Of a stretch of DNA of 64,000 nucleotides, positions 4,166 to 32,099 are shown piece by piece; the first letter of the stretch is position 1, and each line of letters starts with the position of its first letter. The DNA comes from Clostridia bacterium (GTDB lineage Bacteria; Bacillota; Clostridia; UMGS1883): NCBI GenBank assembly GCA_045615705.1, contig JAZLFH010000059.1, positions 1,499 to 65,498 on the forward strand, read 5' to 3'. Under the pieces are notes generated by a model. The model did not search any database and was not told the DNA's origin. It saw only the letters and a list, made by a program, of their open reading frames with translations. The position numbers and the translations under genes are program-made.

Positions 4166-4335
4166 AAAAAAAATTAGCCGTCCCAAAGGCATGGAACGGC
4201 ATAAATGCAATAACTCTATTGCAAAAAACCACTCCGTCTCTCGCAGAGTATAAGGTCTTACTGTACAAAAAAGGCATTCCGACTATAACGGCAGCGGGAC
4301 TGTGTAGGATTTTCACCATTCTTTCCCTTTTTTGC
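4166..4335 (-). ncRNA. putative cobalamin (B12) riboswitch with intrinsic-terminator expression platform
   Basis: The minus-strand leader reads ...GGTGAAAATCCTACACAGTCCCGCTGCCGTTATAGTCGGAATGCC..., with GGTGAAAATCC and a B12-box-like AGTCGGAATGCC (plus 4273..4284). Next comes the hairpin GCCGUUCCAUGCCUUUGGGACGGC (plus 4177..4200) followed by CUAAUUUUUUUU, immediately 5' of the ATG at 4151. The B12-binding genes downstream fit this context. Confidence 0.5.
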
Positions 4336-4358
4336 AATACAATATTGACTTGTCCTTC

Positions 4359-12540: not shown

Positions 12541-12595
12541 TAAGAAATTTATTGCAATGCATAAATTATTATTATATAATAATAACATTATTTTT

Positions 12596-16191
<3,596 letters not shown>

Positions 16192-16215
16192 GGTTGTAAC
16201 TTAAAAAAGAGTAAG

Positions 16216-16266
16216 AAGCCGAGAGATGTTTTCGTTTTTGAAAGTTTCTCTCGGCTTATGTTTACC
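16216..16266 (+). terminator. intrinsic terminator after gdhA
   Basis: AAGCCGAGAGA...TCTCTCGGCTT is a long inverted repeat. Confidence 0.5.
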
Positions 16267-16333
16267 TTTCGATAAAAAAGGCAAGGTTTTGTTTTACTTT
16301 TTGATATACTTTTTTCAGTTCCTTTTTATCAAG

Positions 16334-16362
16334 TTGACACAAGTAAACTTTTTTGGTATAAT
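16334..16362 (+). promoter_or_regulatory. consensus sigma-A promoter (TTGACA-17-TATAAT)
   Basis: ttgacacaagtaaacttttttggtataat is a perfect -35/-10 with a 17-nt spacer. Confidence 0.5.
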
Positions 16363-16467
16363 TTAAGCAACCTGACATAAAGAGCAATCTGATTGAAAGG
16401 GCATATTTTATTTAGTTTTACGATGAAATTGTGCCCTTCTGCACAATTTTTTTATATTAAGGAGAAA

Positions 16468-16722
16468 AAGTTTTATATGGAAACAAAAGTAGCGGTAATA
16501 AGTATCATTTTAAGTGAGAGCAGTTATGCCGACAAACTAAACAGTTTGCTTCACAGTTATCGAGATTACATAATAGGTCGAATGGGTCTTCCGTATTCAA
16601 AAAAAGATGTCAATATTATTTGCATTGCACTTGATGCTCCGCAGGATGTAATCTCTGCTTTGGCAGGAAAACTCGGAAACATTTCAAGTGCAACTGTTAA
16701 AACCTCAATTATTAATGCATAA
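16468..16722 (+). CDS. TM1266-type small regulator (putative iron-only hydrogenase system regulator family)
   Basis: The roughly 84-aa protein reads METKVAVISIILSESSYADKLNSLLHSYRDYIIGRMGLPYSKKDVNIICIALDAPQDVISALAGKLGNI. This matches the YxDYIIGRMG(I/L)PY...DAPQDVISAL(S/A)GKLG pattern of that family. Confidence 0.6.
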   Translation, partial: KFYMETKVAVISIILSESSYADKLNSLLHSYRDYIIGRMGLPYSKKDVNIICIALDAPQDVISALAGKLGNISSATVKTSIINA

Positions 16723-16903
16723 AAATTCTCGCAAAACAAGTTAATTCTTCTTTTGTGAGTTTTAAAAATTAAATTTCTGACGGGGAAGTTTTTCTGACTC
16801 GCAAGAAAGGAGGCATTTTTATGAAAGAAATGCTTATTTTTAAACCTACCGGTTAATTTCCCTTTTATGTACATATCATAATTAAGATAAGGTGGTTTAT
16901 AAA

Positions 16904-17446
16904 ATGAAAATCAAAACTTCAAAAATAGCCTTGGGCGGACTTTTGTACGCAATAATAATTATCATGCAACTTTTAAAAAACATATCTGCATTTATCTCAG
17001 GTCCTGTTATAAATGCGGCACTTGTAATTGCTGCTCTTGAACTTGGTTTAGTTTGCGGAATATCTTATTGTGTTTTAGTTCCGCTTACATCACTTTTGTT
17101 CGCTCCCGCATCACCAATGACTGCACTTACAAGCCTTACAAACGGTTTTACCCTTCCCGTAATCATTATCGGAAATATTATTTTTGTGCTTTCGGCATAC
17201 TTAGGGAAAAAACACGGATATAAGTTTTTTGTACCAAGTCTTCTCCTGGGTTCGGTTTTAAAGTGGCTCTTTATGTGGGGCTGTGCAGACCTTGTGATAA
17301 AACCTCTGTTTTCGGAAAACTTAGGGAAAATGGTAGCCGTAGTAAACAAGATTTTCTCTACATTACAACTTTATTCGGGACTTTTGAGCATTATCCTTAT
17401 CATACCGCTTGTAAAAATGCTTGATAAAATGAGTAAAAAAGAATAA
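16904..17446 (+). CDS. small polytopic membrane protein (ECF S-component-like, about 5 TM helices)
   Basis: MKIKTSKIALGGLLYAIIIIMQL... is a hydrophobic 180-aa protein with a GGTGG-type ribosome-binding site. No diagnostic motif was recognised. Confidence 0.45.
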   Translation: MKIKTSKIALGGLLYAIIIIMQLLKNISAFISGPVINAALVIAALELGLVCGISYCVLVPLTSLLFAPASPMTALTSLTNGFTLPVIIIGNIIFVLSAYLGKKHGYKFFVPSLLLGSVLKWLFMWGCADLVIKPLFSENLGKMVAVVNKIFSTLQLYSGLLSIILIIPLVKMLDKMSKKE

Positions 17447-17485
17447 CTTTTGTCCTTCAAAAAATACTTAAATTCACTATCAAAA

Positions 17486-17506
17486 AAGACTTCCTTTCGG
17501 AAGTCT
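17486..17506. terminator. bidirectional intrinsic terminator
   Basis: AAAAAAGACTTCC-TTTC-GGAAGTCTTTTTT has an A-run on the left and a T-run on the right. Confidence 0.6.
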
Positions 17507-17523
17507 TTTTTGATGCATATATA

Positions 17524-18522
17524 TTATTTCATTGCTTCTTCAACCGCAACTGCAACCGCAACCGTGGCACCTACCATTGGGTTGTTGCCCATACCGATAA
17601 GTCCCATCATTTCAACATGAGCCGGAACCGAAGATGAACCTGCAAACTGAGCATCGCTGTGCATTCTGCCCATTGTGTCTGTCATACCGTAAGAAGCCGG
17701 ACCTGCACCCATATTATCCGGGTGAAGTGTTCTTCCCGTACCGCCTCCGGATGCAACCGAGAAGTATTTCTTTCCTTGCTCTATGCACTCTTTTTTATAT
17801 GTGCCTGCAACAGGATGCTGGAAACGAGTCGGGTTTGTTGAATTACCCGTGATGGATACATCAACGCCTTCATGATGCATAATTGCTACACCTTCACGAA
17901 CATCGTCCGCACCAAAGCAACGAACCTTTGCTCTCTCGCCGTCAGAGTACGCTGTTTCACTTACTACTTCGAGTTTGCTTGTAAGGTAATCAAACTTTGT
18001 TTCAACAAATGTAAATCCGTTTATACGAGAAATAATCTGTGCCGCATCTTTTCCAAGACCGTTTAATATAACCTGCAAAGGCTGTTTTCTGACACGGTTT
18101 GCACTCTTTGCAATACCGATAGCACCTTCTGCTGCTGCAAATGACTCATGTCCTGCCAAAAATGCAAAGCACTTTGTTTCTTCACGCAAAAGCATTGCCG
18201 CAAGATTTCCGTGTCCCAGTCCAACCTTACGGTCATCTGCAACAGAACCGGGAATACAGAATGACTGCAAGCCTTCCCCGATTGCTTCCGCTGCATCTGC
18301 GGCGGTCTTTGTTCCCTTCTTTATTGCTATTGCCGCTCCTACTGTGTATGCCCAGCAAGCATTTTCAAAGCAAATAGGCTGAATGTCTTTTACCATCTTA
18401 TATACATCAATGCCCTTTTCATCGCAAACTTTCTTTGCATCTTCGCAAGATGCCATACCATACTTTTTAAGCACATCTTCTATTTGCTTTATTCTTCTTT
18501 CATAACTTTCAAATAATGCCAT
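17524..18522 (-). CDS. GGGtGRT-family protein (uncharacterised conserved family)
   Basis: The 332-aa protein contains the family-defining motif SGGGTGRT (..KYFSVASGGGTGRTLHPDNMGAGP..). Confidence 0.8.
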   Translation of the reverse strand: MALFESYERRIKQIEDVLKKYGMASCEDAKKVCDEKGIDVYKMVKDIQPICFENACWAYTVGAAIAIKKGTKTAADAAEAIGEGLQSFCIPGSVADDRKVGLGHGNLAAMLLREETKCFAFLAGHESFAAAEGAIGIAKSANRVRKQPLQVILNGLGKDAAQIISRINGFTFVETKFDYLTSKLEVVSETAYSDGERAKVRCFGADDVREGVAIMHHEGVDVSITGNSTNPTRFQHPVAGTYKKECIEQGKKYFSVASGGGTGRTLHPDNMGAGPASYGMTDTMGRMHSDAQFAGSSSVPAHVEMMGLIGMGNNPMVGATVAVAVAVEEAMK

Positions 18523-18534
18523 GATAAAACCTCC

Positions 18535-19227
18535 CTACTCGTTACGCGGATCAATAACTTTGACCGCATCGCTGAATCTGCCGTACTGTCCGCTTGCTTT
18601 TGAAAGAGCTTCGTTAGCGTCCATACCCTTCTTTATCATGTCCATCATCTTTCCGAGATGTACAAACTTGTAACCGATAATAAGGTCGTCCTTGTCAAGG
18701 GCAATTTCCGTGATATATCCTTCCGCAAGTTCAAGATATCTCGGTCCCTTTGCCTTTGTGCTGTAAAGAGTACCTATCTGACTTCTGAGCCCTTTTCCCA
18801 AATCTTCAAGTCCTGCTCCGATAGGAAGTCCGTTTTCGGAAAATGCCGTCTGCGTTCTGCCGTAAACAATCTGTAAGAAAAGTTCACGCATTGCCGTATT
18901 TATAGCATCGCAAACAAGGTCTGTGTTTAATGCTTCAAGAATAGTCTTTCCTGTAAGAATTTCTGCAGCCATTGCAGCAGAATGTGTCATTCCCGAACAA
19001 CCACAGGTTTCTATAAGTGCCTCTTCAATAATACCGTTTTTTACATTAAGTGTGAGTTTGCACATACCCTGTTGAGGTGCACACCAACCAACACCGTGAG
19101 TTAATCCGTTAATATCGGTTATCTCTTTTGCATTTGTCCATGTGCCTTCCTGCGGAATAGGTGCACAGTTGTGCTTTACACCCTTCTTGACAATGCACAT
19201 GTTTTCAACTTCATGTGAATAAATCAT
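18535..19227 (-). CDS. NifU/IscU-like Fe-S cluster scaffold-domain protein with a C-terminal extension
   Basis: GVGWCAPQQGMCKL and IETCGCSGMTHSAAMAAEIL align with the IscU Cys motifs (G.P.CGDVMKL / GCGSAIASSS). It has 230 aa and sits 12 nt upstream of the GGGtGRT gene, in operon-like arrangement. Confidence 0.65.
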   Translation of the reverse strand: MIYSHEVENMCIVKKGVKHNCAPIPQEGTWTNAKEITDINGLTHGVGWCAPQQGMCKLTLNVKNGIIEEALIETCGCSGMTHSAAMAAEILTGKTILEALNTDLVCDAINTAMRELFLQIVYGRTQTAFSENGLPIGAGLEDLGKGLRSQIGTLYSTKAKGPRYLELAEGYITEIALDKDDLIIGYKFVHLGKMMDMIKKGMDANEALSKASGQYGRFSDAVKVIDPRNE

Positions 19228-19393
19228 TTATTCTTCTCCTTTCAAAAACCATCTGTAATATATTATCACTACTTTTTATAAATTTCAACACTTTTTCTTC
19301 GGTATGTACTCATTTTATACAAAGACACAAAAAATTGAAAAATTTTTTCAAAAAACTATTGCATTTTCAAAAACAAAGTGTTATATTGTTGAT

Positions 19394-19416
19394 AGTCAAA
19401 GAAAGTCAAAGTCAAA
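19394..19416 (+). promoter_or_regulatory. CtsR operator (direct heptad repeats AGTCAAA-GAA-AGTCAAA-GTCAAA)
   Basis: agtcaaagaaagtcaaagtcaaa lies 27 nt upstream of the ctsR start and matches the GGTCAAA-NAN-GGTCAAA consensus. Confidence 0.75.
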
Positions 19417-19442
19417 TTATAGGCAAAAAAGAGGTAATTAAA

Positions 19443-19886
19443 ATGAGTATGTCTGATATTATCGAAAAAATGCTCTTGGAGATGTTTGATAACTCGGATG
19501 GAAGCATTGAAATACGCCGCAACACATTAGCCGAGCGTATGAACTGCGTACCATCACAAATAAACTATGTTATTCAAACTCGATTTACTCCCGAGCGTGG
19601 TTACACCATCGAAAGTCGGCGTGGTGGTGGCGGAAGCGTAAAAATCAAAAAGGTAAACATTGACCGTGCAAGTTACATTATGCACATTATTAACACAATA
19701 GGAAGCGAAATTGACTTTCAGACGGCACGAGTATTTATCAAAAACTTTTTGGGCTATTCACTCATAACGGAGCGAGAGGCAAGACTTATGGCATCGGCAC
19801 TTTCAGATAAGTCTATCGGTGTAAGACCTGATATTGACAAAATCAGAGCCGGCATCTTCAAAAATATGCTTATAACACTCGTGTGA
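19443..19886 (+). CDS. ctsR: class III stress-gene repressor CtsR
   Basis: MSMSDIIEKMLLEMF...ERGYTIESRRGGGGSVKI has the glycine-rich CtsR loop. It is the first gene of the ctsR-mcsA-mcsB-clpC operon. Confidence 0.85.
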   Translation: MSMSDIIEKMLLEMFDNSDGSIEIRRNTLAERMNCVPSQINYVIQTRFTPERGYTIESRRGGGGSVKIKKVNIDRASYIMHIINTIGSEIDFQTARVFIKNFLGYSLITEREARLMASALSDKSIGVRPDIDKIRAGIFKNMLITLV

Positions 19887-19913
19887 AGTAAATGTTTTTA
19901 AGGAGGAATTAAT

Positions 19914-20390
19914 ATGTTATGTGAAAAATGCGGAATGAATGAGGCAACCGTTAAAGTTACACAAATAATTAACGGGCATAAGACTTTAAAACATCTTTGT
20001 CATGATTGTGCCCAAGCAGATGATGTTTTTAAAGGAATTACGCTTGGTTTTGGGGGAATGTTCCCCGAATTTTCTTCGCTTCACGAATCGGTCGAAGAAA
20101 AGGAATGTCCGCTTTGCAAAATGAAGTTAAGCACATTTTTAAAGACTTCAAAACCCGGTTGCGGTGAGTGTTACAGTGCTTTCGAAAAGGAGATGGCTCC
20201 TCTTTTAAAGAAAATTCATGCTACTAATATCCACTCGGGCAAAGTTGCAAAAAGCGGTGATGAAAAAGTAATTGCAAAAAGAAAAATTGACCTTTTAAAA
20301 GCTAAACTCCAAGATGCCGTAAAAAAGGAACAATACGAAGAAGCCGCCAAACTTCGTGATGAAATTAAGGAAATGGAGGGAGAAGTATGA
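19914..20390 (+). CDS. mcsA: McsA (zinc-finger activator of McsB with a UVR motif)
   Basis: Cys pairs (CEKCG, CHDC, CPLC, CGEC) and a C-terminal UVR-like EQYEEAAKLRDEIKEMEG. Confidence 0.8.
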   Translation: MLCEKCGMNEATVKVTQIINGHKTLKHLCHDCAQADDVFKGITLGFGGMFPEFSSLHESVEEKECPLCKMKLSTFLKTSKPGCGECYSAFEKEMAPLLKKIHATNIHSGKVAKSGDEKVIAKRKIDLLKAKLQDAVKKEQYEEAAKLRDEIKEMEGEV

Positions 20391-21409
20391 CCTGGTATTC
20401 ACAAAAAGGTAACAGCAATGACATCTCACTTTCTACAAGAGTCAGACTTGCAAGAAATCTTAAAGGCTACCCCTTCCCCGTTAAACTTGACCGAAAAAGC
20501 GGAGAAGAAATAATAGAAAAAGTGTGGGCTGCATTTGAAAACTTTCCCGAAAAAGACAGCCTTCGTCTTATAAAAATGGGCGACATCTCCCCTACTGAGA
20601 GAATTGCACTTGCCGAAAGGCACTTAATCAGTATGGAAATGGCAAAAAGCGATTTTCCTTCTGCCGTTATTTTAGACTCAGACGAGGATATCTCCGTAAT
20701 GATAAACGAAGAAGACCATTTGAGAATTCAGGCATTTGCTCCGGGGTTTGATATTGATAAAGCGTACAACATTGCAAATAAACTTGATATATTTCTTTCT
20801 GAAAATCTTGAGTTTTCTTTTCATGAACGGTTTGGATTTTTGACAGCTTGTCCCACAAATGTCGGGACGGGGCTGAGAGCATCTGTTATGCTTCATCTCC
20901 CTGCCCTCACGGCTACAAAAAATTTAAACAATATTCTTTCGTGGTCGGGAAAACTCGGGCTTACCCTGAGAGGGCTTTTCGGAGAAGGTACGCAAGGTGC
21001 CGGAAGAATATATCAATTATCAAATCAAATAACCCTCGGGCCTTCCGAGGAGGACATCTTGACAAGGCTAAAAAGTGCTGCTTCGGAATTAATGAATCAA
21101 GAAAGACTGCTTCAAGCAAAAATGTTTGAAGCAAAAAGAGTTCAAATTACAGATTCATGTATGCGTGCTTACGGAATACTCTCAAACGCCTACACTCTTT
21201 CCAGCAATGAAATGATGACTCTTATTTCCGATGTTCATTTGGGAATAAATTTAGGTATTATAAAAAATGTAACTCAGGAGTCTTTGACAAGTTCAATCTT
21301 TTTAACGATGCCCGCTAACATTGCCGTCAAAACAGGGAATGTTAACTCACCCATTATGCGTGATATAAAAAGGGCAGAATTTATTAAAAACACAATCACA
21401 AAGGAGTGA
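20387..21409 (+). CDS. mcsB: protein-arginine kinase McsB
   Basis: ATP:guanido phosphotransferase fold ([18 protein letters not shown]); it overlaps mcsA and clpC. Confidence 0.85.
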
Positions 21410-23850
21410 TAATTATGCCATTTGAAAACAGATTCAGTGACGGAGCACAAAGAACCCTTCAAATCGCACAGGACTGTGCAAAAGATACCGGGTGTAACTT
21501 CGTTGGAAGTGAGCATCTTCTTCTTTCGATTTTGCGTGAAGGTAGCGGACTTGCTTCAAAATATTTAGAAGAAAACTCCATAACAGAAGATGCTTTAATA
21601 GAAAAAATCACGGAGTACAATGATACTCCGTCAGGCAGCGGTGCTTTTGCGGGATTTACTCCAAGAACTGTCCGGTGCCTTCAAAACAGTGCTATGGAGG
21701 CACATCGCCTTGGAAGTAATATAATAGGAACCGAGCATATTTTATTGGCACTTTTCCGTGAAACGGACAGTGTTGCGTGCAGAATTTTGTCTGAACTCGG
21801 TATGGGACAAGATTCTTATAAAAACTTCTCCGACTACCTTTTAGGAGAAAACAAAGATTCCGGAGGTAAAAGAAAGGACACCAAAACTCCTACGCTTGAT
21901 AAATTCGGCAGGGATTTAACCGAATTTGCAAGAATAGGAAAACTTGACCCGGTAATAGGACGAGAAAACGAAATTGAAAGAGTTATTCAGATTCTTTCAA
22001 GAAGGACAAAAAACAATCCCGTTCTTTTAGGCGAACCCGGTGTAGGTAAAACCGCTGTTGCAGAGGGCCTTGCAGAGCAAATTGTATCGGGAAATGTTCC
22101 TGAACTTTTAAAAAACAAAAGAGTATTCACTCTTGATTTATCATCTATGGTCGCAGGTGCAAAATACCGTGGTGAATTTGAAGAACGCCTCAAAAAAGCG
22201 ATGGATGAAGTAATAAACGCCGGTAATGTAATTCTGTTTATTGACGAAATGCACACTATTATCGGTGCCGGTGCCGCAGAAGGCTCTATTGATGCATCTA
22301 ATATCTTAAAACCTTCCCTTGCCCGTGGCGAACTGCAATTAATAGGTGCAACAACTTTTTCCGAATACAGAAAGTATATTGAAAAGGATTCCGCACTTGA
22401 AAGGCGTTTCCAACCTGTAACTGTCGGAGAACCCACAGTTGATGAAACAATCGAAATTCTTAAAGGAATAAGAGAGAAATATGAGGCTCATCACGGAATT
22501 AAAATTACCGATGAAGCATTAATAAGTGCTTCTAAGTTATCAGCCCGTTATATTACAGACAGGTTCTTGCCCGACAAGGCGATAGACCTTATTGATGAGG
22601 CAGCAAGCCGTGCAAAGTTAAAAACGCTTACAGTTCCGCCTGAAATCAAGGAAATAGAGGAAAAACTCACCAAAACGCTCCACGAAAAGGAAGAAGCAAT
22701 AAAACTTCAAGACTTTGAAAAAGCTGCCAAACTTCGTGATGAAGAAAAAGCACTTAAAGAACAGATTGAAAAAGAACGCACCGAATGGAACAAATCGCAT
22801 TCCGACAGTGTCGGTGAAATAGGTGAAGAAGAAATCGCAGAAATAATTTCAAACTGGACAAAAATCCCCGTCAAAAAACTCGCCGAGGAAGAGTCCGAAA
22901 GACTTCGCCACCTTGAAGATGTGCTTCATTCAAGAGTTGTAGGTCAAGATGAGGCGGTTAAAACCGTTTCCCGTGCAATAAGGCGTGGCAGAGTGGGGCT
23001 TAAAGATCCAAAGCGTCCGGTTGGTTCGTTCATATTTTTAGGACCTACCGGCGTTGGTAAAACCGAACTGTCAAAGGCTCTTGCAGAAGCAATTTTCGGC
23101 AATGAAGATTCAATGATAAGGATTGATATGAGTGAATATATGGAAAAGCACTCCGTATCAAAACTTGTCGGTTCGCCTCCCGGATATGTAGGCTTTGACG
23201 AAGGCGGTCAACTTACCGAAAAAATACGCAAGAAGCCGTACAGTGTAGTCCTGTTTGATGAAATAGAAAAAGCACATCCCGATGTCTTTAACATACTGCT
23301 TCAAATACTTGAAGACGGAATTTTAACAGACTCACAAGGCAGAAGAGTTGATTTTAGAAACACTGTAATCATTATGACATCAAACCTCGGTGCAAGAAAT
23401 ATTGTCGAGCCTAAAAACTTGGGGTTCGGTGATAACAAGGACGCTAAAAAGGCACATGAGGATATAAGAAGAAATGTTATGGACGAACTGAAAAAAGCGT
23501 TCCGCCCCGAGTTTTTAAACAGAATTGACGACATTATTGTTTTCAATCAGTTGACCGAAGACGAAATCAAATCTATTGCCTCGCTTATGCTTAATTCACT
23601 TAAAGACAGATTAATTGCAAACGATATTAATGCAGTATTTGACGACAGTGCAATATCGCTTTTGGCAAAAGAAGGATTTGACCCTGTGTATGGTGCAAGA
23701 CCGCTCAGACGGGCTATTGTTTCTAAGGTCGAGGACTTATTCGCCGAAGAAATGCTTTCGGGAAATGTCAAAAAAGGAGATAATGTAACAGTTGTCGCCG
23801 AGGGTGAAAAAATACTAATAAAAAATGCAGTTAACAAAAAAAGTGATTAA
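21406..23850 (+). CDS. clpC: ATP-dependent Clp protease ATP-binding subunit ClpC
   Basis: Clp N-domain repeats, two AAA+ modules ([18 protein letters not shown]), a UVR linker ([17 protein letters not shown]), and 814 aa. Confidence 0.9.
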
Positions 23851-26867: not shown

Positions 26868-26958
26868 GGAGAGATGGCTGAGTTGGTCTAAGGCGCACGA
26901 CTGGAAATCGTGTAACGGTTAACCCCGTTCAAGGGTTCGAATCCCTTTCTCTCCGCCA
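26868..26958 (+). tRNA. tRNA-Ser (anticodon GGA), CCA encoded
   Basis: GGAGAGA acceptor stem, anticodon stem CACGA/UCGUG with loop CUGGAAA, a long variable arm (AACGG/CCGUU), T-arm GGTTCGAATCC, and a 3' end of UCUCUCC-G-CCA. A TTGTAA-17-TATAAT promoter lies upstream. Confidence 0.85.
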
Positions 26959-27414: not shown

Positions 27415-30400
27415 TTAATCTTCTCCTTTTGCTTTGCAAAGAGGAGTTATATCGGAAAGCGATGACCACCAAAAAGCTTTTACATATCCGCTTTGGGTAA
27501 ATTTGCCTGTCAGGTCATCTGTTTTCGTCAGGTCAAAAGTTTTCACATCAAGTAATTGATTCAAATTTTCATTATCATAAAGTGCAACAATCACAATGCC
27601 CTTGTTTGTATTCTCGCCGTTTGGTGTTACGGTGAAGGTATTCCATGTGGTGTCAAGGGCAAGGCTATCTTTTTCGACGATTTTCACATACGGCATTGTG
27701 CTGTCAAAACTGACACGGTTTTCGTTTTTGTCGTAAACCGCCATATTTTCGCCGATTGTGATTACATCGGCGCCGATGGCTGTTTCGGACACTGAACCCG
27801 TTGCGGTAACTTTGCCGCCGTAAATCGCAACGCCGGTCAAGTCGCCGTTAGTAGTGTTGCCGTGACCGATTCCTTGTGCGGAGAGCAGTCCGGTTGCCGT
27901 GACATCGCCGCCGTAGACTGTCACGCTTCCACCATTGCCGCCGAACATTCCCGTGCCGATGCCTGCACCGTTCGAACTGCTGTTTGCGACTATCTCGCCG
28001 CCGTGAATCGTGATATTGCCGCAGCTTGCGCTCATACCTCCGCCGATGCCGGCAGAGTATGTACCGCCGTTTGCAATAAGCTTACCGGTGCCGCCCTTTT
28101 GCGCATGGACCGTCAGGCTGTTTTCGCCTTCGACCTTGATGCCGCCGACCGTCAGCTCACAGCCGTCCATCAAAATAAGGCTGACATCGCCCGTCACCGT
28201 GACGCTGCTTAAATTTACCGTACCGTCTGCGATGTAAAATCCGCCATTCCATGCGGTTTCATCCGAAAGAACGGTCGCACCTGCGGGAATTTCCAAAAGC
28301 TGCTCTGTGACCTTTTGATTTTGCTCGTCCAGGCTCCGGGCGATATAACAACAGCTCGGATCTTTCGCACCGCAAACGGAGCAGTAGCCATTTACATAAG
28401 TACAGCTTTCGGTTTTGGTCGGTTCGTAACATTCGCCTCCTTGATTGGTATAACAGGTATCACAGAGAAAAGTATGAGTTCCGTTTGTGCCGGCGTCGAT
28501 GATCTTGCCGTACGAATGTATATGTTGTGTCCATTTTGCATAAAGCGTAATATCCTCTGCACAGTTCGCACTGACAGAGGTGACCGGACTGCCCGAACAG
28601 TCAGATTTCTTGAACCAGCCGAGAAAAATATAGTCTGCTTTGACTGCTCTCTTCAACGCTGTCACAGAACCGTAGGTATGTGTTGTCGGATAACCGATTT
28701 CATGTTCACCCGTGAAATCGCATCCGTCTTCATCCTCATCCTCATCCTCATCTTCATCTTCATCCTCGGCTTTGTCCTTGGCTTTATCCTTATAAATTAT
28801 GTTGTAAGCAGCGTTCTTCCAATGTGCGTACAGCGTAAAATCACTCTTCCTGTCGCAGTTTCTTACGCTTTCTCCGCTTGCGTTGTAGTAAGCATTTCCA
28901 AACTTATCATAATAACCCTCGAATGTATAACCGGTCTTTGTCGGAACAGTTATTTCGGGCATCGCATAAGTATAGCGTGCCTCGGCGGCTTCGCTTCCGT
29001 CTCCGCCTCCCTGCATATCAAAGAAGGTAACCGTCACGCTGATATTCGGAGCGTCTGCAAGCTCCAAATAGCCTCCATCGGCGGTTTCGTGCCTTATGTA
29101 TTTACCTTCTGCATCAGAGAAGAAATAATTCGCATCTGCTCCGTTTGTTGTAAATCTGCCGTTGCCGGCTTTTGAAATGCCGATTTGAGCGCCCTGCTTA
29201 AATCCATCGGGGCTATTGCAAACGGTTATGCATTTTGAATCCTGCAAATAGAGATTGTTGTCAGAAGTTCCGTCTTTTGACAAGTTACCGTAAATTTTAG
29301 CTGTTCCGCCGACTGTAAGTTCTCCTCCGTCAGCAACATAAACTCCGCCGCCAAGGTCTGCCGAATTTCCCGTAACAGTGCCGCCTGTCATCGTCAGCTT
29401 GCCTTTGACCAGCACGCCGCCGCCATATAGCTTAGAATCACCTGTGCCTAAGGTCTGACCGGTGCCGCCCGTGATTGTTCCGCACGACGACTGACTGCTG
29501 TCCGTAATTGTCAGATTTGTGCCCTCTTTAACCACGATTGCGCTTCCTTTTGCCTGAGAGAAGTCCATACTGTGTCCGTTGAGGTCAAGAATTACTTTTG
29601 TATGATCTTCCGATGTGTCTACACAGAACGGCTCATCATGGCTGCCGGCTTTGATATCATTCAACAGTTTAATTGTTACAATATACGGAGTACTGTCCAC
29701 CACGCTGACCTCAAGGTCACCGTCGAGCGCCTCACGTGTACACAGTCTGTCCCATGGGCTTGCCGCAATATAGTCAAATAATTTATGCGTGTGATAATAT
29801 GCAACCTCGGTTGCATCATTATGTTTCCATATATTTTCACGGTTTTCCTCAGCGTCTTCACCAATATATGAAGGCCAGTCCGGGTTTTCTCCTATATAGC
29901 TCTCAAGATTTATATTCTTAAGTGTTGATACCGGATTTGAGCCGGCTGCATAGGACTCCACCGGAATTGCGTCCGCAAGCAGCTGCGCTTTGAGAGCAAA
30001 CGCCGCAAACGCCTCACTGCTTGAAATAAACGGCTCTTCTTCACATGCCATACGCTCATCAATAAACGGTGTGAATCTTGTATTTGCCGGACTGATGTCT
30101 CCGGGGTCATAGTTTTCGTTTATGCCCCAGCCGCCTTCGTAATTCATCTGTAATGTGGCATCAAGACCAAGGATATTATACATGACATTATTGATTACTT
30201 TTATATAATCCGTTCCTTTGATTTTTTCGGTAAATGCCCAGTAACCATCATATTTCAATAATTCATGGCCTTCTTTATATTCACTTTTTCGGGTGTACAA
30301 TTTGTTGAAAAATATATCTCTTATTTCCTCTTCACTCGCTTCACGGTCCACATCGTCCGGACAATTTGCAAGGAATTCATCGCTTGGTGAATACAAATTG

Positions 30401-31731
30401 ACAACATTCTTTTTTACATCCTCAAAGCGACCCTTCCAGGTCAAGGTGCTGCGAAAATCCGATTGCCCGAAATTATCATACCAATGCGAAGCCCGCTTTT
30501 GAGCCGGGATATTATTTTCCCAGTAATCATCAACCATTCCGTCATCAACGGCATTTTTGTCGAATGCCTCCGCGGCAATTGATGCATTGAGCATAAAATA
30601 CTTTTCATATTCAAGTCCGAAGTCTTGTATTGCAGAACAAATCAGCATATTGCCGAGTGAATGACCGACCAGATATTTTCTGCCCGGAAGCCGTTCACAT
30701 AAATTTTTAAAATCCTGTGCCGCGGCAAAAGCATTTTCAACATTTGCGTAATAATTCAATGTGAGATTAATAGTACCAAGGAACTTTATCATTGATTCAT
30801 CGCTGTCCCATTCTACTGCCGTAAACATCGAATCCGAGCCGGACTGCCAAAGCCTCTTGTAAAATTCTGACGCTTCTCCTCTCGCTTCATCATGCGTTAC
30901 ATTGTATCCGTGGACAAAGACGAACTGCCTGCCGTCCGAATCCGCATCCTTTCTCGCCGTCGGCTCGTCAGGTACGGATGAATCACCTTGACGAAGATTG
31001 ATTGTGCGGTACATATCCTCAACCTTCGCTACCTTGATAGGCAAATTTAAACTTACCGGATCACGGTCGTCTTTATAACCCGTAAGAACAATATTCCCTT
31101 CACCGAGACCGCTGCCTTCGATCAGTAAAACACCTCTGCCTTCTTGCAAAAAACCATCCGGCAGTTGTGGTTCATCACGGAGAGAAGTGACAGAAGCTTC
31201 ATATACCGGAGTTTCACCATCGAACTCTTTTACATCTATTTTTGTATGAAAATCGCCGGCTTTATCTGCGTTTAGTTTTGTAAACACAACATTTACATTT
31301 GCATCACCTGTGGATTTAAGTTCCCATGTATAATTTTCCCATTCGGGAACCCCGGTCACATCAACCAAAACAGGGAAAAAATCGAGCAGGTCGCAGCGCC
31401 CGTTTACTTTATCGTCATCATAATCCATTTTGTTTCTTTCGTCTGCCGGAGTATCATGTCCGGCAGTATCATGTCCGGCAGTATTTGTATCTCCGGCTGT
31501 TTCGCCGTCACTTGTTCCTTCGGCATCATCGTCATCATTCAGCCAAATGGTAAATACGCCGGTTCCGGATATGGATTTATCATAGTCATATTCGTCAATC
31601 TTGCCATCCCTGTTTAAATCGGGAACCAGTTTCGGCCCCCGTCCGGCCGCAAAGACAGGGATAGTCCCAAGCGGAAGCATTGAGACGATCACAAAAACCG
31701 CAAGTAATAAACTGATAATCTTCTTTTTCAT
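27415..31731 (-). CDS. giant secreted modular surface protein (EF-hand/dockerin-like Ca motif, alpha/beta-hydrolase GHSLG domain, Gly-rich parallel beta-helix repeats, Listeria-Bacteroides (Flg_new) repeats, acidic (D/E)n linker, Cys-rich modules, conserved C-terminal module)
   Basis: The likely start is MKKKIISLLLAVFVIVSMLPLG at 31731, with GGAGGT 9 nt upstream, followed by a signal peptide. It contains DLNRDGKIDEYD, FVFVHGYN...LVGHSLGNMLI, the repeat GGxVTAxG..GAGIGGG, and GYTFEGYYDKFGN. The last 70 aa are near-identical to the paralogue at 32100..36008. Confidence 0.8.
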   Translation of the reverse strand: MKKKIISLLLAVFVIVSMLPLGTIPVFAAGRGPKLVPDLNRDGKIDEYDYDKSISGTGVFTIWLNDDDDAEGTSDGETAGDTNTAGHDTAGHDTPADERNKMDYDDDKVNGRCDLLDFFPVLVDVTGVPEWENYTWELKSTGDANVNVVFTKLNADKAGDFHTKIDVKEFDGETPVYEASVTSLRDEPQLPDGFLQEGRGVLLIEGSGLGEGNIVLTGYKDDRDPVSLNLPIKVAKVEDMYRTINLRQGDSSVPDEPTARKDADSDGRQFVFVHGYNVTHDEARGEASEFYKRLWQSGSDSMFTAVEWDSDESMIKFLGTINLTLNYYANVENAFAAAQDFKNLCERLPGRKYLVGHSLGNMLICSAIQDFGLEYEKYFMLNASIAAEAFDKNAVDDGMVDDYWENNIPAQKRASHWYDNFGQSDFRSTLTWKGRFEDVKKNVVNLYSPSDEFLANCPDDVDREASEEEIRDIFFNKLYTRKSEYKEGHELLKYDGYWAFTEKIKGTDYIKVINNVMYNILGLDATLQMNYEGGWGINENYDPGDISPANTRFTPFIDERMACEEEPFISSSEAFAAFALKAQLLADAIPVESYAAGSNPVSTLKNINLESYIGENPDWPSYIGEDAEENRENIWKHNDATEVAYYHTHKLFDYIAASPWDRLCTREALDGDLEVSVVDSTPYIVTIKLLNDIKAGSHDEPFCVDTSEDHTKVILDLNGHSMDFSQAKGSAIVVKEGTNLTITDSSQSSCGTITGGTGQTLGTGDSKLYGGGVLVKGKLTMTGGTVTGNSADLGGGVYVADGGELTVGGTAKIYGNLSKDGTSDNNLYLQDSKCITVCNSPDGFKQGAQIGISKAGNGRFTTNGADANYFFSDAEGKYIRHETADGGYLELADAPNISVTVTFFDMQGGGDGSEAAEARYTYAMPEITVPTKTGYTFEGYYDKFGNAYYNASGESVRNCDRKSDFTLYAHWKNAAYNIIYKDKAKDKAEDEDEDEDEDEDEDGCDFTGEHEIGYPTTHTYGSVTALKRAVKADYIFLGWFKKSDCSGSPVTSVSANCAEDITLYAKWTQHIHSYGKIIDAGTNGTHTFLCDTCYTNQGGECYEPTKTESCTYVNGYCSVCGAKDPSCCYIARSLDEQNQKVTEQLLEIPAGATVLSDETAWNGGFYIADGTVNLSSVTVTGDVSLILMDGCELTVGGIKVEGENSLTVHAQKGGTGKLIANGGTYSAGIGGGMSASCGNITIHGGEIVANSSSNGAGIGTGMFGGNGGSVTVYGGDVTATGLLSAQGIGHGNTTNGDLTGVAIYGGKVTATGSVSETAIGADVITIGENMAVYDKNENRVSFDSTMPYVKIVEKDSLALDTTWNTFTVTPNGENTNKGIVIVALYDNENLNQLLDVKTFDLTKTDDLTGKFTQSGYVKAFWWSSLSDITPLCKAKGED

Positions 31732-32009
31732 ACTCTTGTACCTCCTGAAATTGCTTTTCATATTCTACTTTACACTATCAATTGCTTCTATTATTGAAAT
31801 TTTTATAAAAATTTAACTGTGTTTTTCTTGTGTATGTAATAAAATGACACAACAAAACCAATTATACATTTTAATTATAGCACTTTTGATTGTGACTTTC
31901 AAGATGCCAAAGCCATTTTCTCTCTTTGCAAGTTTTCCACAAAATTAACAAAATGCTTTGAATTTTATCTTACTAAACTCTCTTATGCAAACTTGTGTCA
32001 AATAAAGAC

Positions 32010-32052
32010 AAAAAAGATAATGGATACTTTTGAGTATTCATTATCTTTTTTT
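32010..32052. terminator. bidirectional intrinsic terminator between the two giant genes
   Basis: aaaaagataatggatacttttgagtattcattatcttttttt. Confidence 0.5.
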
Positions 32053-32099
32053 ATAATATTTAATTTATATTGTGCCTGAATTTTAATCTGCTGTGATTT

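What the first reader, a model, noticed from the sequence alone, without database searches (positions are those of the whole stretch)
16334..19227. Conserved 'dark' neighbourhood: TM1266-type regulator + membrane protein converging on NifU-like + GGGtGRT operon
Four poorly characterised genes cluster here. A roughly 84-aa TM1266-family regulator (YRDYIIGRMGLPY...DAPQDVISALAGKLG) is driven by a perfect TTGACA-17-TATAAT promoter and a structured leader. It is followed by a 5-TM ECF-S-like membrane protein. On the other strand an IscU/NifU-like scaffold domain protein is operon-linked (12-nt gap) to a GGGtGRT-family protein, which carries the literal SGGGTGRT motif. TM1266-type regulators are usually described next to [FeFe]-hydrogenase maturases, but none are present here. 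The co-occurrence with an Fe-S scaffold paralogue and GGGtGRT suggests a metal-cofactor assembly or trafficking system of unknown target.
Basis: partly seen in the sequence, partly recalled or inferred. Interest (0 to 1): 0.6.

Follow-up and report, generated by a model that had tools for sequence, protein, structure and literature searches.

The report
Two unrelated gene pairs, one new RNA leader
The four "dark" genes are two unrelated pairs that merely sit back to back: a NifU-like/GGGtGRT pair kept almost unchanged across many phyla, mostly anaerobes, and a small TM1266-type protein plus vitamin-type transporter subunit controlled by an RNA leader element absent from the Rfam RNA-family database.

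Summary
The genes, the perfect promoter, the 12-nt gap and the SGGGTGRT motif are all real. The proposed four-gene conserved neighbourhood is not.

**NifU-like + GGGtGRT pair**
- In 80 GGGtGRT loci from at least 8 phyla, the NifU-like gene lies directly upstream in 75 of 75 loci that hold upstream DNA.
- No TM1266-like gene occurs within 10 kb in any of the 80, and the membrane protein appears once, weakly.
- No third gene recurs, so this is a self-contained bicistron.
- It is 78-89% identical across phyla while synonymous sites are saturated.
- Literature shows it is abundant, switched off under iron limitation, and has a mild glucose-signalling phenotype in Bacteroides.
- Its fold has no PDB match.

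**TM1266-like + ECF-S pair**
- In 80 TM1266-like loci the usual partners are HydE, HydG and HydF. None has GGGtGRT.
- Only the window's subclade (three genomes, three different flanks) pairs it with an ECF S-component.

**New RNA hairpin**
- A conserved hairpin, absent from Rfam, occurs in two forms.
- Class A sits in the leader and is followed by a terminator in 28 of 28 distinct cases.
- Class B overlaps the hydG ribosome-binding site. In the window it overlaps the ribosome-binding site of a 10-codon uORF before the transporter gene.
- I infer that the TM1266-like protein is a PyrR/TRAP-style RNA-binding attenuator. This is untested.

The parts
16334..16362 (+). Sigma-70 promoter TTGACA-17-TATAAT with a TG-extended -10, for the TM1266-like/ECF-S unit
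   Evidence: 12 of 12 matches. A promoter lies at the equivalent place in L167.
16363..16406 (+). Class A copy of the TM1266-associated RNA hairpin. Layout: CCUGACAUAAAG, then P2 AGA/UCU, then CUGAUUGAAAGG. It sits at the 5' end of the transcript.
   Evidence: Model R1 scores it 47.3 bits and R2 41.3 bits. Covariation is shown. Rfam has no match.
16395..16457 (+). Expression platform. An antiterminator (GAAAGGGCA at 16395-16403 pairing with UGCCCUUC at 16433-16440) competes with an intrinsic terminator (AAUUGUGC-CCUUCU-GCACAAUU plus U7, about 16425-16457).
   Evidence: Terminator found. L167 has a compensatory change, UUGUAC/GUACAA. All 28 distinct class A copies are followed by a terminator-like hairpin. 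The antiterminator pairing was read directly from the sequence.
16477..16722 (+). TM1266-like protein, 81 aa. It is a small protein homologous to PDB 2nzc (ACT/NikR-C-like fold from memory, not tested) and is too short to carry a separate DNA-binding domain.
16774..16816 (+). Class-B-like copy of the same RNA element (UUUCUGACGGGGAAGUUUUUCUGACUCGCAAGAAAGGAGG). Its 3' tail is the Shine-Dalgarno sequence of the uORF.
   Evidence: The gap is 78% identical across window, L006 and L167. It aligns with the element before hydG in canonical operons. The covariance-model score is weak, 13.1 bits.
16820..16852 (+). Upstream ORF of 10 codons (MKEMLIFKPTG*). Its 3' end (AAACCUACC) can pair with the Shine-Dalgarno sequence of the ECF-S gene.
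   Evidence: L006 has MLTANNNAPPN* and L167 has (TTG)LNKYCDKPPD* at the same place. The minimum-free-energy fold pairs the uORF 3' end with the Shine-Dalgarno sequence in all three, but the z-scores are not significant.
16904..17446 (+). ECF-type S-component-like membrane protein, 180 aa, substrate unknown
17478..17515 (.). Bidirectional intrinsic terminator shared by the two convergent units
17524..18522 (-). GGGtGRT protein (PF14057), 332 aa
18523..18534 (-). 12-nt intercistronic gap carrying the Shine-Dalgarno sequence GGAGG
18535..19227 (-). NifU/IscU-like protein, 230 aa. An IscU-like core with invariant C49, C56, C77, C106 and H44 (H82 in 72 of 73) is followed by a C-terminal domain of about 110 aa with no known relative.
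19260..19288 (-). Promoter-like site TTGAAA-17-TAATAT with TG, and a short 5' UTR, for the nifU-like/GGGtGRT operon

Best explanation
The interval holds two independent transcription units that converge on one bidirectional terminator.

**Unit 1: nifU-like and GGGtGRT (minus strand)**
- It is a self-contained, strongly expressed bicistron found with the same gene order across many phyla, most of them anaerobes.
- I read it as a two-subunit, iron-dependent protein complex and most likely an Fe-S enzyme. The IscU-fold subunit would hold a permanent cluster on its four invariant cysteines.
- The GGGtGRT subunit would bind a small, possibly phosphorylated, metabolite with its invariant Gly/His-rich loops (residues 258-315).
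- I do not read it as a cluster-assembly scaffold.

**Unit 2: TM1266-like, uORF and ECF-S (plus strand)**
- It is a variant of the TM1266-hydE-hydG-hydF operon in which the maturase genes are replaced by an ECF S-component.
- It keeps the operon's regulatory RNA. A class A hairpin at the 5' end competes with an antiterminator. When the hairpin is stabilised, the terminator forms and transcription stops before the TM1266-like gene.
- A class-B-like copy overlaps the Shine-Dalgarno sequence of a 10-codon uORF. In canonical operons that same position is the hydG start.
- Translation of the uORF would unmask the transporter's Shine-Dalgarno sequence.
- I infer that the factor stabilising both hairpins is the TM1266-like protein itself, loaded with a small ligand. 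It would act like PyrR, TRAP or HutP.

**Shown versus inferred**
- Shown: gene families, gene-order conservation or its absence, the RNA motif with its positions and covariation, and the terminators.
- Inferred: who binds the RNA, the ligand, the uORF relay, and the chemistry of unit 1.
For: **Independence of the two units**
- None of 80 GGGtGRT loci has a TM1266-like gene, and one has a weak ECF-S hit.
- None of 80 TM1266-like loci has GGGtGRT, the NifU-like gene or this ECF-S.
- The TM1266-like/ECF-S pair recurs in L006 and L167-169 with different flanks and no GGGtGRT.

**Unit 1**
- The NifU-like gene is directly upstream in 75 of 75 loci, from Clostridia, Bacteroidota, Verrucomicrobiota, Myxococcota, Desulfobacterota, Acidobacteriota, Actinomycetota and Lentisphaerota.
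- No third family recurs. The next most common neighbour is a generic ABC ATPase in 11 loci.
- Amino-acid identity is 80-89% while third-codon identity is 32-50% and GC3 ranges from 0.18 to 0.90.
- The family collapses into essentially one cluster at 50% identity.
- Invariant residues are C49, C56, C77, C106 and H44 (H82 in 72 of 73) in the NifU-like protein, and H104 (79 of 80, the other a gap), H125, H236, H267, H288 and H302 in GGGtGRT.
- The operon falls 11- to 12.8-fold under iron depletion in B. thetaiotaomicron (PMC10434189). The listed fold-change values (up to 7.1) in a C. pasteurianum study of varied iron availability show it responds to growth condition; the columns were not resolved (PMC5395762).
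- It is highly expressed in vivo in distant taxa (PMC11204068).
- Transposon insertions in BT0173-4 double the Cur read-out in glucose (bioRxiv 10.64898/2026.04.10.717545).

**Unit 2**
- Canonical order is TM1266-like, HydE (551 bits), HydG (915 bits), HydF (547 bits).
- Model R2 gives 57 hits at E < 1e-3, all on the coding strand of TM1266 loci. It gives none at E <= 1 in 1.18 Mb of control loci.
- 92% of pair cells are standard pairs, against 34-53% when partners are slid. P1 is CG in 25 and UA in 14; P1b is AU in 21 and GC in 11; P2 is AU in 20 and GC in 11.
- 28 of 28 distinct class A copies precede a terminator-like hairpin. All 13 canonical class B copies end 5-12 nt before the HydG AUG.
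- ECF-S homologues without a TM1266-like neighbour have no confident copy of the motif.
Against: **Unit 1**
- No chemistry is shown.
- The GGGtGRT model has low confidence exactly in its most conserved loop (residues 258-299, pLDDT below 50). There is no PDB fold or profile match.
- The third IscU cluster cysteine cannot be aligned.
- The Bacteroides mutants grow normally in glucose medium, which fits poorly with a core enzyme.

**Unit 2**
- RNA binding by the TM1266-like protein is untested. The protein is only about +1 in net charge (counted by eye from the sequence).
- Only about half of the TM1266 loci have a detectable motif.
- A small metabolite-binding riboswitch would give the same genomic picture.
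- The window's class-B-like copy scores only 13 bits, and RNAalifold finds no consensus fold for the class B alignment.
- The uORF relay rests on three sequences, and the folds are not better than shuffles.
- The covariation counts come from alignments fitted to the model.
Confidence: 0.6

Rival explanations
1. One reading: all four genes form one conserved metal-cofactor assembly or trafficking system. The TM1266-like protein would regulate the NifU-like/GGGtGRT pair, and the membrane protein would import the metal or precursor.
For: The genes are physically adjacent in this window. All four are poorly characterised. The NifU-like/GGGtGRT pair responds to iron.
Against: None of 80 GGGtGRT loci and none of 80 TM1266-like loci shows the co-occurrence. 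The units are convergent with their own promoters and a shared terminator. The same TM1266-like/ECF-S pair sits elsewhere in relatives. The RNA motif linked to TM1266 is absent from 1.18 Mb of GGGtGRT loci.
Confidence: 0.04
2. The conserved RNA hairpin is a metabolite-binding riboswitch, with a ligand related both to H-cluster maturation and to the transporter's substrate. The TM1266-like protein would then be a separate ligand-binding accessory and not the RNA's partner.
For: The element is a compact, conserved hairpin with invariant unpaired purines, followed by a terminator or overlapping a Shine-Dalgarno sequence. Both are classic riboswitch expression platforms. ECF S-component genes are commonly riboswitch-controlled (established knowledge). 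L001 has a weak class-B-like sequence before an ECF-S gene that lacks a TM1266-like neighbour.
Against: Every confident copy lies in an operon whose first gene is TM1266-like, once in the leader and once between cistrons. That is the PyrR/HutP layout. The motif is one irregular helix without a junction or pseudoknot. ECF-S homologues without a TM1266-like neighbour lack confident copies.
Confidence: 0.3
3. The NifU-like/GGGtGRT pair is an alternative Fe-S (or other metallocluster) scaffold and carrier system, not an enzyme. The IscU-like subunit would assemble a transient cluster, and GGGtGRT would be its chaperone or donor.
For: The protein has an IscU-like core with conserved cysteines. Its expression depends on iron. 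The conserved Gly-rich loops are predicted to be disordered without a partner or cofactor.
Against: No cysteine desulfurase or any other recurrent neighbour occurs in 80 loci. The IscU, NifU and SufU equivalog models fail by a wide margin. There are four invariant cysteines rather than three; by general knowledge a fourth ligand suggests a stable cluster. The proteins rank among highly expressed proteins in vivo. They are repressed, not induced, when iron is scarce. The mutant phenotype touches glucose signalling.
Confidence: 0.25

Closest known systems
TM1266 family (TIGR03959 / PF21699; PDB 2nzc), the 'iron-only hydrogenase system putative regulator'
   Same: The window protein is a full-length match above curated cut-offs. 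It has the same 81-aa size and the conserved IIGRMGLPY and DAPxDxISALxGKLG motifs. It carries the same class A leader RNA as the hydEGF-linked members.
   Different: It is followed by a uORF and an ECF S-component instead of HydE, HydG and HydF. No maturase or HydA lies in the 64 kb window. It belongs to a small subclade, 63-77% identical, with this arrangement.
PyrR, TRAP (MtrB) and HutP: small RNA-binding attenuation proteins of Firmicutes
   Same: The regulator is a small protein, and PyrR and HutP are likewise encoded first in the operon they control (established knowledge). Its presumed RNA target occurs once in the leader, overlapping an antiterminator/terminator switch. It occurs again between cistrons or at a ribosome-binding site.
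   Different: There is no sequence relationship. RNA binding by TM1266-like proteins has never been shown and was not testable here. The target is one irregular hairpin with tandem purine internal loops, not triplet repeats.
GGGtGRT family (PF14057) with its NifU-like partner, for example B. thetaiotaomicron BT0173-BT0174
   Same: Same two genes in the same order with a short gap. The match is 660 bits and the motif is literal.
   Different: Nothing differs apart from the host. This is an ordinary member of an uncharacterised family.
IscU / NifU N-terminal / SufU Fe-S scaffolds (PF01592)
   Same: The central segment, residues 49-113, aligns with IscU around the first two cluster cysteines. The Pfam score just clears the cut-off.
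   Different: The IscU, NifU and SufU equivalog models fail, scoring 20-30 bits against cut-offs of 92-192. The protein has an extra invariant Cys and two His, plus an unrelated C-terminal domain of about 110 aa. It is never next to a cysteine desulfurase.
ECF transporter S components (PF12822; RibU, ThiT, FolT, and 6fnp chain A)
   Same: The family matches PF12822 in 30 of 36 members. The AF2 model is closest to TmRibU (probability 1.0, TM 0.62-0.67), ThiT and FolT. The family profile hits 6fnp_A at E = 0.0036.
   Different: The window protein itself is below Pfam and NCBIfam detection. The family is narrow, with 61 homologues found. The substrate is unknown. No known vitamin riboswitch lies upstream.

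Membership tests
TM1266 family (TIGR03959 / PF21699) | Full-length HMM match above the curated cut-off | tested here: met
   TIGR03959 scores 99.8 bits against 60.8. PF21699 scores 97.7 bits against 27.
TM1266 family (TIGR03959 / PF21699) | Sequence similarity to the solved structure of TM1266 (2nzc) | tested here: met
   E = 3.2e-10 over residues 1-77.
TM1266 family (TIGR03959 / PF21699) | Genomic linkage to the HydE, HydG and HydF maturases, which is the basis of the 'hydrogenase system regulator' name | tested here: not met
   No HydE or HydF homologue (one radical-SAM probe also served for HydG) and no HydA motif in the 64 kb window. The linkage holds in 48 of the 80 other loci. The rest of the genome is not visible.
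GGGtGRT (PF14057) | Full-length HMM match and the literal GGGTGRT motif | tested here: met
   660.4 bits covering positions 1-327 of 327. The SGGGTGRT motif is found.
GGGtGRT (PF14057) | NifU-like partner gene immediately upstream on the same strand | tested here: met
   12-nt gap in the window. Present in 75 of 75 informative loci.
IscU / NifU_N Fe-S scaffold (PF01592; TIGR01999, TIGR03419, TIGR01994) | HMM match above the curated cut-off | tested here: inconclusive
   Pfam scores 23.7 bits against 22 and the match is partial, positions 39-95 of 127. All three NCBIfam equivalogs fail, at 20-30 bits against 92-192.
IscU / NifU_N Fe-S scaffold (PF01592; TIGR01999, TIGR03419, TIGR01994) | Three conserved cluster-ligand cysteines | tested here: inconclusive
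   C56 and C77 align with the first two IscU cysteines. The third is outside the alignable region. C49 and C106 are also invariant.
IscU / NifU_N Fe-S scaffold (PF01592; TIGR01999, TIGR03419, TIGR01994) | Operon partner is a cysteine desulfurase (IscS, NifS or SufS) | tested here: not met
   No recurrent neighbour other than GGGtGRT in 80 loci.
ECF transporter S component (PF12822) | HMM match | tested here: inconclusive
   The window protein has no hit at E <= 0.01. 30 of 36 homologues do, with a best E of 7e-12.
ECF transporter S component (PF12822) | S-component fold: small, all-helical, about six membrane helices | tested here: met
   AF2 pLDDT is 90.2. The top Foldseek PDB hits are TmRibU (TM 0.62-0.67), ThiT and FolT.
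ECF transporter S component (PF12822) | An EcfA/A'/T energising module in the same genome | not tested
   Only 64 kb is visible and it was not searched.
Any Rfam family (riboswitch or leader) | Covariance-model match to the leader or intercistronic RNA | tested here: not met
   There is no match at E <= 5 in window 16100-19500. There is none at E <= 1 in the canonical loci L107, L113, L132 and L167.
Terminator/antiterminator transcription attenuators | Intrinsic terminator between promoter and start codon, with a mutually exclusive alternative helix | tested here: met
   The terminator is at 16425-16450 with a U-run. It is present after 28 of 28 distinct class A copies. The alternative pairing 16395-16403/16433-16440 was read from the sequence. 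L167 has a compensatory change in the terminator stem.
RNA-binding attenuation proteins (PyrR / TRAP / HutP type) | Regulator gene in the regulated operon, with RNA sites in the leader and between cistrons | tested here: met
RNA-binding attenuation proteins (PyrR / TRAP / HutP type) | Direct, ligand-dependent binding of the protein to the RNA | not testable with these tools
   This needs EMSA or ITC with purified protein.

The most novel reading that the evidence does not exclude
TM1266-family proteins have been annotated for nearly two decades as 'putative regulators' without a DNA-binding domain. They may instead be ligand-gated RNA-binding attenuators. Their target would be an undescribed conserved hairpin, in a class A leader copy and a class B ribosome-binding-site copy. 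Through it they would control [FeFe]-hydrogenase maturase synthesis and, in a subclade, an ECF transporter through a uORF relay. This would add a new protein/RNA pair to the PyrR/TRAP/HutP class and give the first regulatory handle on H-cluster maturation.
Probability: 0.4. Interest if true: 0.75.

Novelty: new variant of a known kind. Interest (0 to 1): 0.6.

Why it matters
**Against guilt by association**
- Physical adjacency here is accidental. Linking GGGtGRT to TM1266 or to hydrogenase biology would mislead annotation.

**GGGtGRT and its NifU-like partner**
- They are among the most conserved and most abundant proteins of unknown function in gut and sediment anaerobes.
- They form an autonomous two-gene unit under extreme purifying selection and need no third partner. 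That tells experimenters exactly what to co-express and purify.

**The RNA element**
- It gives a concrete, cheap test for what TM1266-type proteins do.
- It suggests how cells throttle hydE, hydG and hydF expression, which matters for engineering hydrogen production.
- It also flags an orphan ECF S-component whose substrate may be tied to the same signal.

Tried and rejected
**Structure and homology searches that found nothing**
- Sequence and profile searches of GGGtGRT against PDB gave no hit.
- Foldseek of the AF2 model gave nothing significant. A few corrinoid-binding Rossmann domains appeared at probability 0.13-0.25, which I treat as noise.
- Pfam scans of GGGtGRT sub-domains and of the NifU-like C-terminal domain at E <= 10 found nothing new.

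**Leads that did not hold**
- 'Long' GGGtGRT proteins looked like possible natural fusions but are assembly chimeras with internal duplications.
- A search for a shared regulatory motif or palindrome upstream of the nifU-like gene in 70 loci found none. The palindrome TTGAAAAAATTTTTCAA is specific to this window.
- Recent horizontal transfer was rejected as the cause of the high identity, because synonymous sites are saturated and GC3 follows the host.

**RNA analyses that were weak or negative**
- Rfam has no family for either RNA region.
- RNAalifold on the MAFFT alignment of class B copies predicted no pairs.
- The covariance model scores the window's intercistronic copy only weakly.
- Literature searches for any function of TM1266 found none.

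Full report
**1. Observation**

ORF listing and HMM scans confirm four genes.

- The TM1266-like protein is at 16477-16722 (+) and is 81 aa. It scores 97.7 bits against PF21699 and 99.8 bits against TIGR03959 (cut-off 60.8). It matches PDB 2nzc at 3e-10.
- A 180-aa membrane protein is at 16904-17446 (+).
- GGGtGRT is at 17524-18522 (-), with 660 bits against PF14057.
- A 230-aa NifU-like protein is at 18535-19227 (-). Its PF01592 score is only 23.7 bits against a cut-off of 22, and the IscU, NifU and SufU equivalogs fail.

The promoter TTGACA-17-TATAAT at 16334-16362 is a 12/12 match with a TG extension. A terminator-like hairpin with a U-run lies in the leader at 16425-16450. A bidirectional terminator at 17478-17515 sits between the convergent genes. 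The nifU-like/GGGtGRT gap is 12 nt and holds GGAGG.

**2. Is the four-gene neighbourhood conserved? No.**

An alignment-based scan of GTDB species genomes returned 80 GGGtGRT loci with flanks of up to 10 kb. They come from Clostridia, Bacteroidales, Akkermansia, Myxococcales, Polyangiaceae, Syntrophorhabdus, Desulfobacteraceae, Geobacter, Holophaga, Eggerthellaceae and Lentisphaeria.

- phmmer with the window proteins found the NifU-like gene directly upstream on the same strand in all 75 loci that include upstream DNA.
- It found no TM1266-like gene at all, and a single weak ECF-S hit 7.6 kb away.
- Clustering all neighbouring ORFs showed no third recurrent family. The next most common is a generic ABC ATPase in 11 loci.

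The converse scan gave 80 metagenome loci around TM1266-like genes. A HydE/HydG radical-SAM cluster lies immediately downstream in 48 loci and HydF in 35. None has GGGtGRT, the NifU-like gene or this ECF-S. Curated models confirm the order TM1266-like, HydE, HydG, HydF in L107.

**3. The nifU-like/GGGtGRT module**

The family is remarkably uniform.

- A search of 1.84 billion representatives at 50% identity finds essentially one full-length cluster plus fragments and frameshifted products. Only one truly divergent member, P0208 at 53%, appears.
- Across phyla the window protein is 80-89% identical. Third-codon positions at identical residues are only 32-50% identical, and GC3 runs from 0.18 to 0.90. 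This is ancient purifying selection, not recent transfer.
- The partner protein is 64-85% identical.

Invariant residues:

- NifU-like: C49, C56, C77, C106 and H44 (H82 in 72 of 73). C56 and C77 align with the first two IscU ligands.
- GGGtGRT: H104 (79 of 80, the other a gap), H125, H236, H267, H288 and H302, plus C89, C118 and C202. The cysteines C89 and C118 are lost in P0208.

AlphaFold2 gives an N-terminal helical domain and a Rossmann-like alpha/beta domain (pLDDT 78, pTM 0.83). The most conserved stretch, residues 258-299 including SGGGTGRT, has pLDDT below 50. It probably needs a cofactor or the partner protein to become ordered. Neither sequence profiles nor Foldseek find a PDB relative. 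The NifU-like C-terminal domain of about 110 aa has no detectable relative.

The literature offers only omics mentions and one genetic screen.

- BT0173-74 falls 11- to 12.8-fold under iron depletion (PMC10434189).
- The C. pasteurianum protein is listed with fold-change values of 2.2 to 7.1 in a study of varied iron availability; the excerpt does not show which comparison each belongs to (PMC5395762).
- In the rumen metaproteome it is grouped (HIGH0) with PEP carboxykinase, and the discussion also lists PPDK and GAPDH in that group (PMC7035244).
- Transposon insertions in BT0173-4 came out of a screen for loss of glucose-dependent Cur inhibition, alongside pfkA. They give a two-fold effect and no growth defect (bioRxiv 10.64898/2026.04.10.717545).

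Four things argue for an iron-containing enzyme complex rather than a transient scaffold:

- the proteins are abundant;
- no cysteine desulfurase partner is present;
- the NifU-like subunit has four invariant cysteines;
- the operon is repressed, not induced, when iron is scarce.

That conclusion is an inference. I put it at about 0.35-0.4, against 0.25 for an assembly or carrier role.

**4. The TM1266-like/ECF-S module**

The membrane protein has only 61 detectable homologues. Three lines support an S-component assignment.

- 30 of 36 homologues hit PF12822.
- The family profile hits 6fnp chain A at E = 0.0036.
- An AF2 model (pLDDT 90) is closest to TmRibU (probability 1.0, TM 0.62-0.67), ThiT and FolT.

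Its homologues sit in varied contexts: after an SSF symporter, after a DAP dehydrogenase, before a C_GCAxxG_C_C protein, or alone. The closest homologues behave differently. Those in L006 and L167-169 (ECF-S 65% identical) follow a TM1266-like gene that is 63-77% identical, with the same 160-180-nt gap. Their flanks differ from the window's and from each other. P0126 (66%) shares a contig length with P0334, which suggests, but does not show, a fourth pair. The pair is therefore a real, mobile two-gene module.

**5. A conserved RNA element**

The leader is conserved between the window and L167, with a compensatory change in the terminator stem. The intercistronic gap is 78% identical among three genomes whose proteins are 63-77% identical.

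The same leader core, CCUGACAnnAAG-hairpin-CUGAYUGAAAGG, appears upstream of hydEGF-linked TM1266 genes.

- A covariance model built from seven instances (R1) found further copies in TM1266 loci, all on the coding strand. Its best score in 1.18 Mb of GGGtGRT control loci was 17 bits.
- A second model (R2) gave 57 hits at E < 1e-3 and none at E <= 1 in the control.
- On the model-fitted alignment, 92% of pair cells are standard pairs, against 34-53% when partners are slid. P1 is CG in 25 and UA in 14. P1b is AU in 21 and GC in 11. P2 is AU in 20 and GC in 11.
- These counts lean towards the model's structure, and the class A/class B split may represent few evolutionary events.

Two classes emerge.

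- Class A lies 59-200 nt upstream of the TM1266-like start. It is followed by a terminator-like hairpin in 28 of 28 distinct cases.
- Class B has the form UCUGACGGAAAG...YCUGACCGnAAGAAAGGA. It lies after hydE and ends 5-12 nt before the HydG AUG in all 13 canonical cases.
- The window's intercistronic element (16774-16816) aligns with class B, although R2 scores it at only 13 bits.

In the window, the class B Shine-Dalgarno sequence serves a 10-codon uORF in place of hydG. L006 and L167 have 11- and 10-codon uORFs at the same place. In all three, the minimum-free-energy fold pairs the uORF 3' end with the transporter's Shine-Dalgarno sequence, but the energies are not significant.

Rfam 15 has no match to either region, in the window or in canonical loci. 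No paper assigns a function to TM1266.

**6. Mechanism (inferred)**

The P1 3' strand (AGG within GAAAGGGCA, 16395-16403) can instead pair with UGCCCUUC (16433-16440), which is part of the terminator. Stabilising the hairpin should therefore allow the terminator to form and switch expression off. Stabilising class B should hide a Shine-Dalgarno sequence.

The layout has three parts: a small regulator gene placed first, one site in the leader, and a second site between cistrons. That is the PyrR/HutP/TRAP arrangement. From memory, not tested here, the 2nzc fold is ACT/NikR-C-like and shares the beta-alpha-beta-beta-alpha-beta topology of RRM domains. ECF-S homologues without a TM1266-like neighbour lack confident copies of the motif.

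I therefore favour the TM1266-like protein as the RNA's ligand-gated partner, at about 0.4-0.5. The alternative is a small riboswitch, at about 0.3.

**7. Verdict**

What remains is an ordinary member of a strikingly conserved but still unexplained two-gene module. Next to it lies a variant TM1266 operon that exposes an RNA element absent from Rfam 15 and from the papers searched, and a testable function for the TM1266 family.

Noticed in passing
window 4264-4336 (-): AdoCbl-II (cobalamin) riboswitch aptamer, 43.4 bits against a gathering score of 36.5. It is unrelated to the finding.
   Followed up: no
window 19437-23850 (+), operator about 19393-19415: A ctsR-mcsA-mcsB-clpC stress operon is transcribed divergently from the nifU-like gene. 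A CtsR-box-like repeat, AGTCAAA-GAA-AGTCAAA-GTCAAA, lies in the shared intergenic region.
   Followed up: partly
window about 19335-19351: A perfect 17-nt palindrome, TTGAAAAAATTTTTCAA, lies upstream of the nifU-like promoter. No equivalent is conserved upstream of the nifU-like gene in 70 other loci.
   Followed up: yes
window 28000-36000: A stretch with clearly higher G+C (0.46-0.52, against about 0.38 elsewhere). Its content was not examined.
   Followed up: no
window 12557-16191 (+): A glutamate-synthase-like oxidoreductase pair and an NADP-type glutamate dehydrogenase lie directly upstream of the TM1266-like promoter. A hairpin follows gdhA at about 16217-16260.
   Followed up: no
window 26868-26955 (+): A long-arm tRNA gene of 88 nt.
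   Followed up: no
database proteins P0001, P0002, P0004, P0005, P0182: 'Long' GGGtGRT proteins of 379-494 aa carry internal duplications of 50-170 residues. They look like metagenome assembly chimeras caused by the near-identity of the gene between species.
   Followed up: yes
L001 7789-8000: An ECF-S homologue without a TM1266-like neighbour has its own promoter and a long-range helix (CUUAGCAGAAA pairing with UUUCUGCUAAG). It also has a terminator and a weak class-B-like core, GAAAGAAUUUUCUGACUGCGAAGAAAG, which R1 scores at 13.6 bits.
   Followed up: partly
L171-L176: In one lineage the ECF-S homologue starts 13 nt after a sodium:solute symporter (SSF) gene, which suggests a two-gene uptake unit.
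   Followed up: no
L167 1-358: This locus begins with the 3' end of 23S rRNA and a 5S rRNA gene.
   Followed up: no
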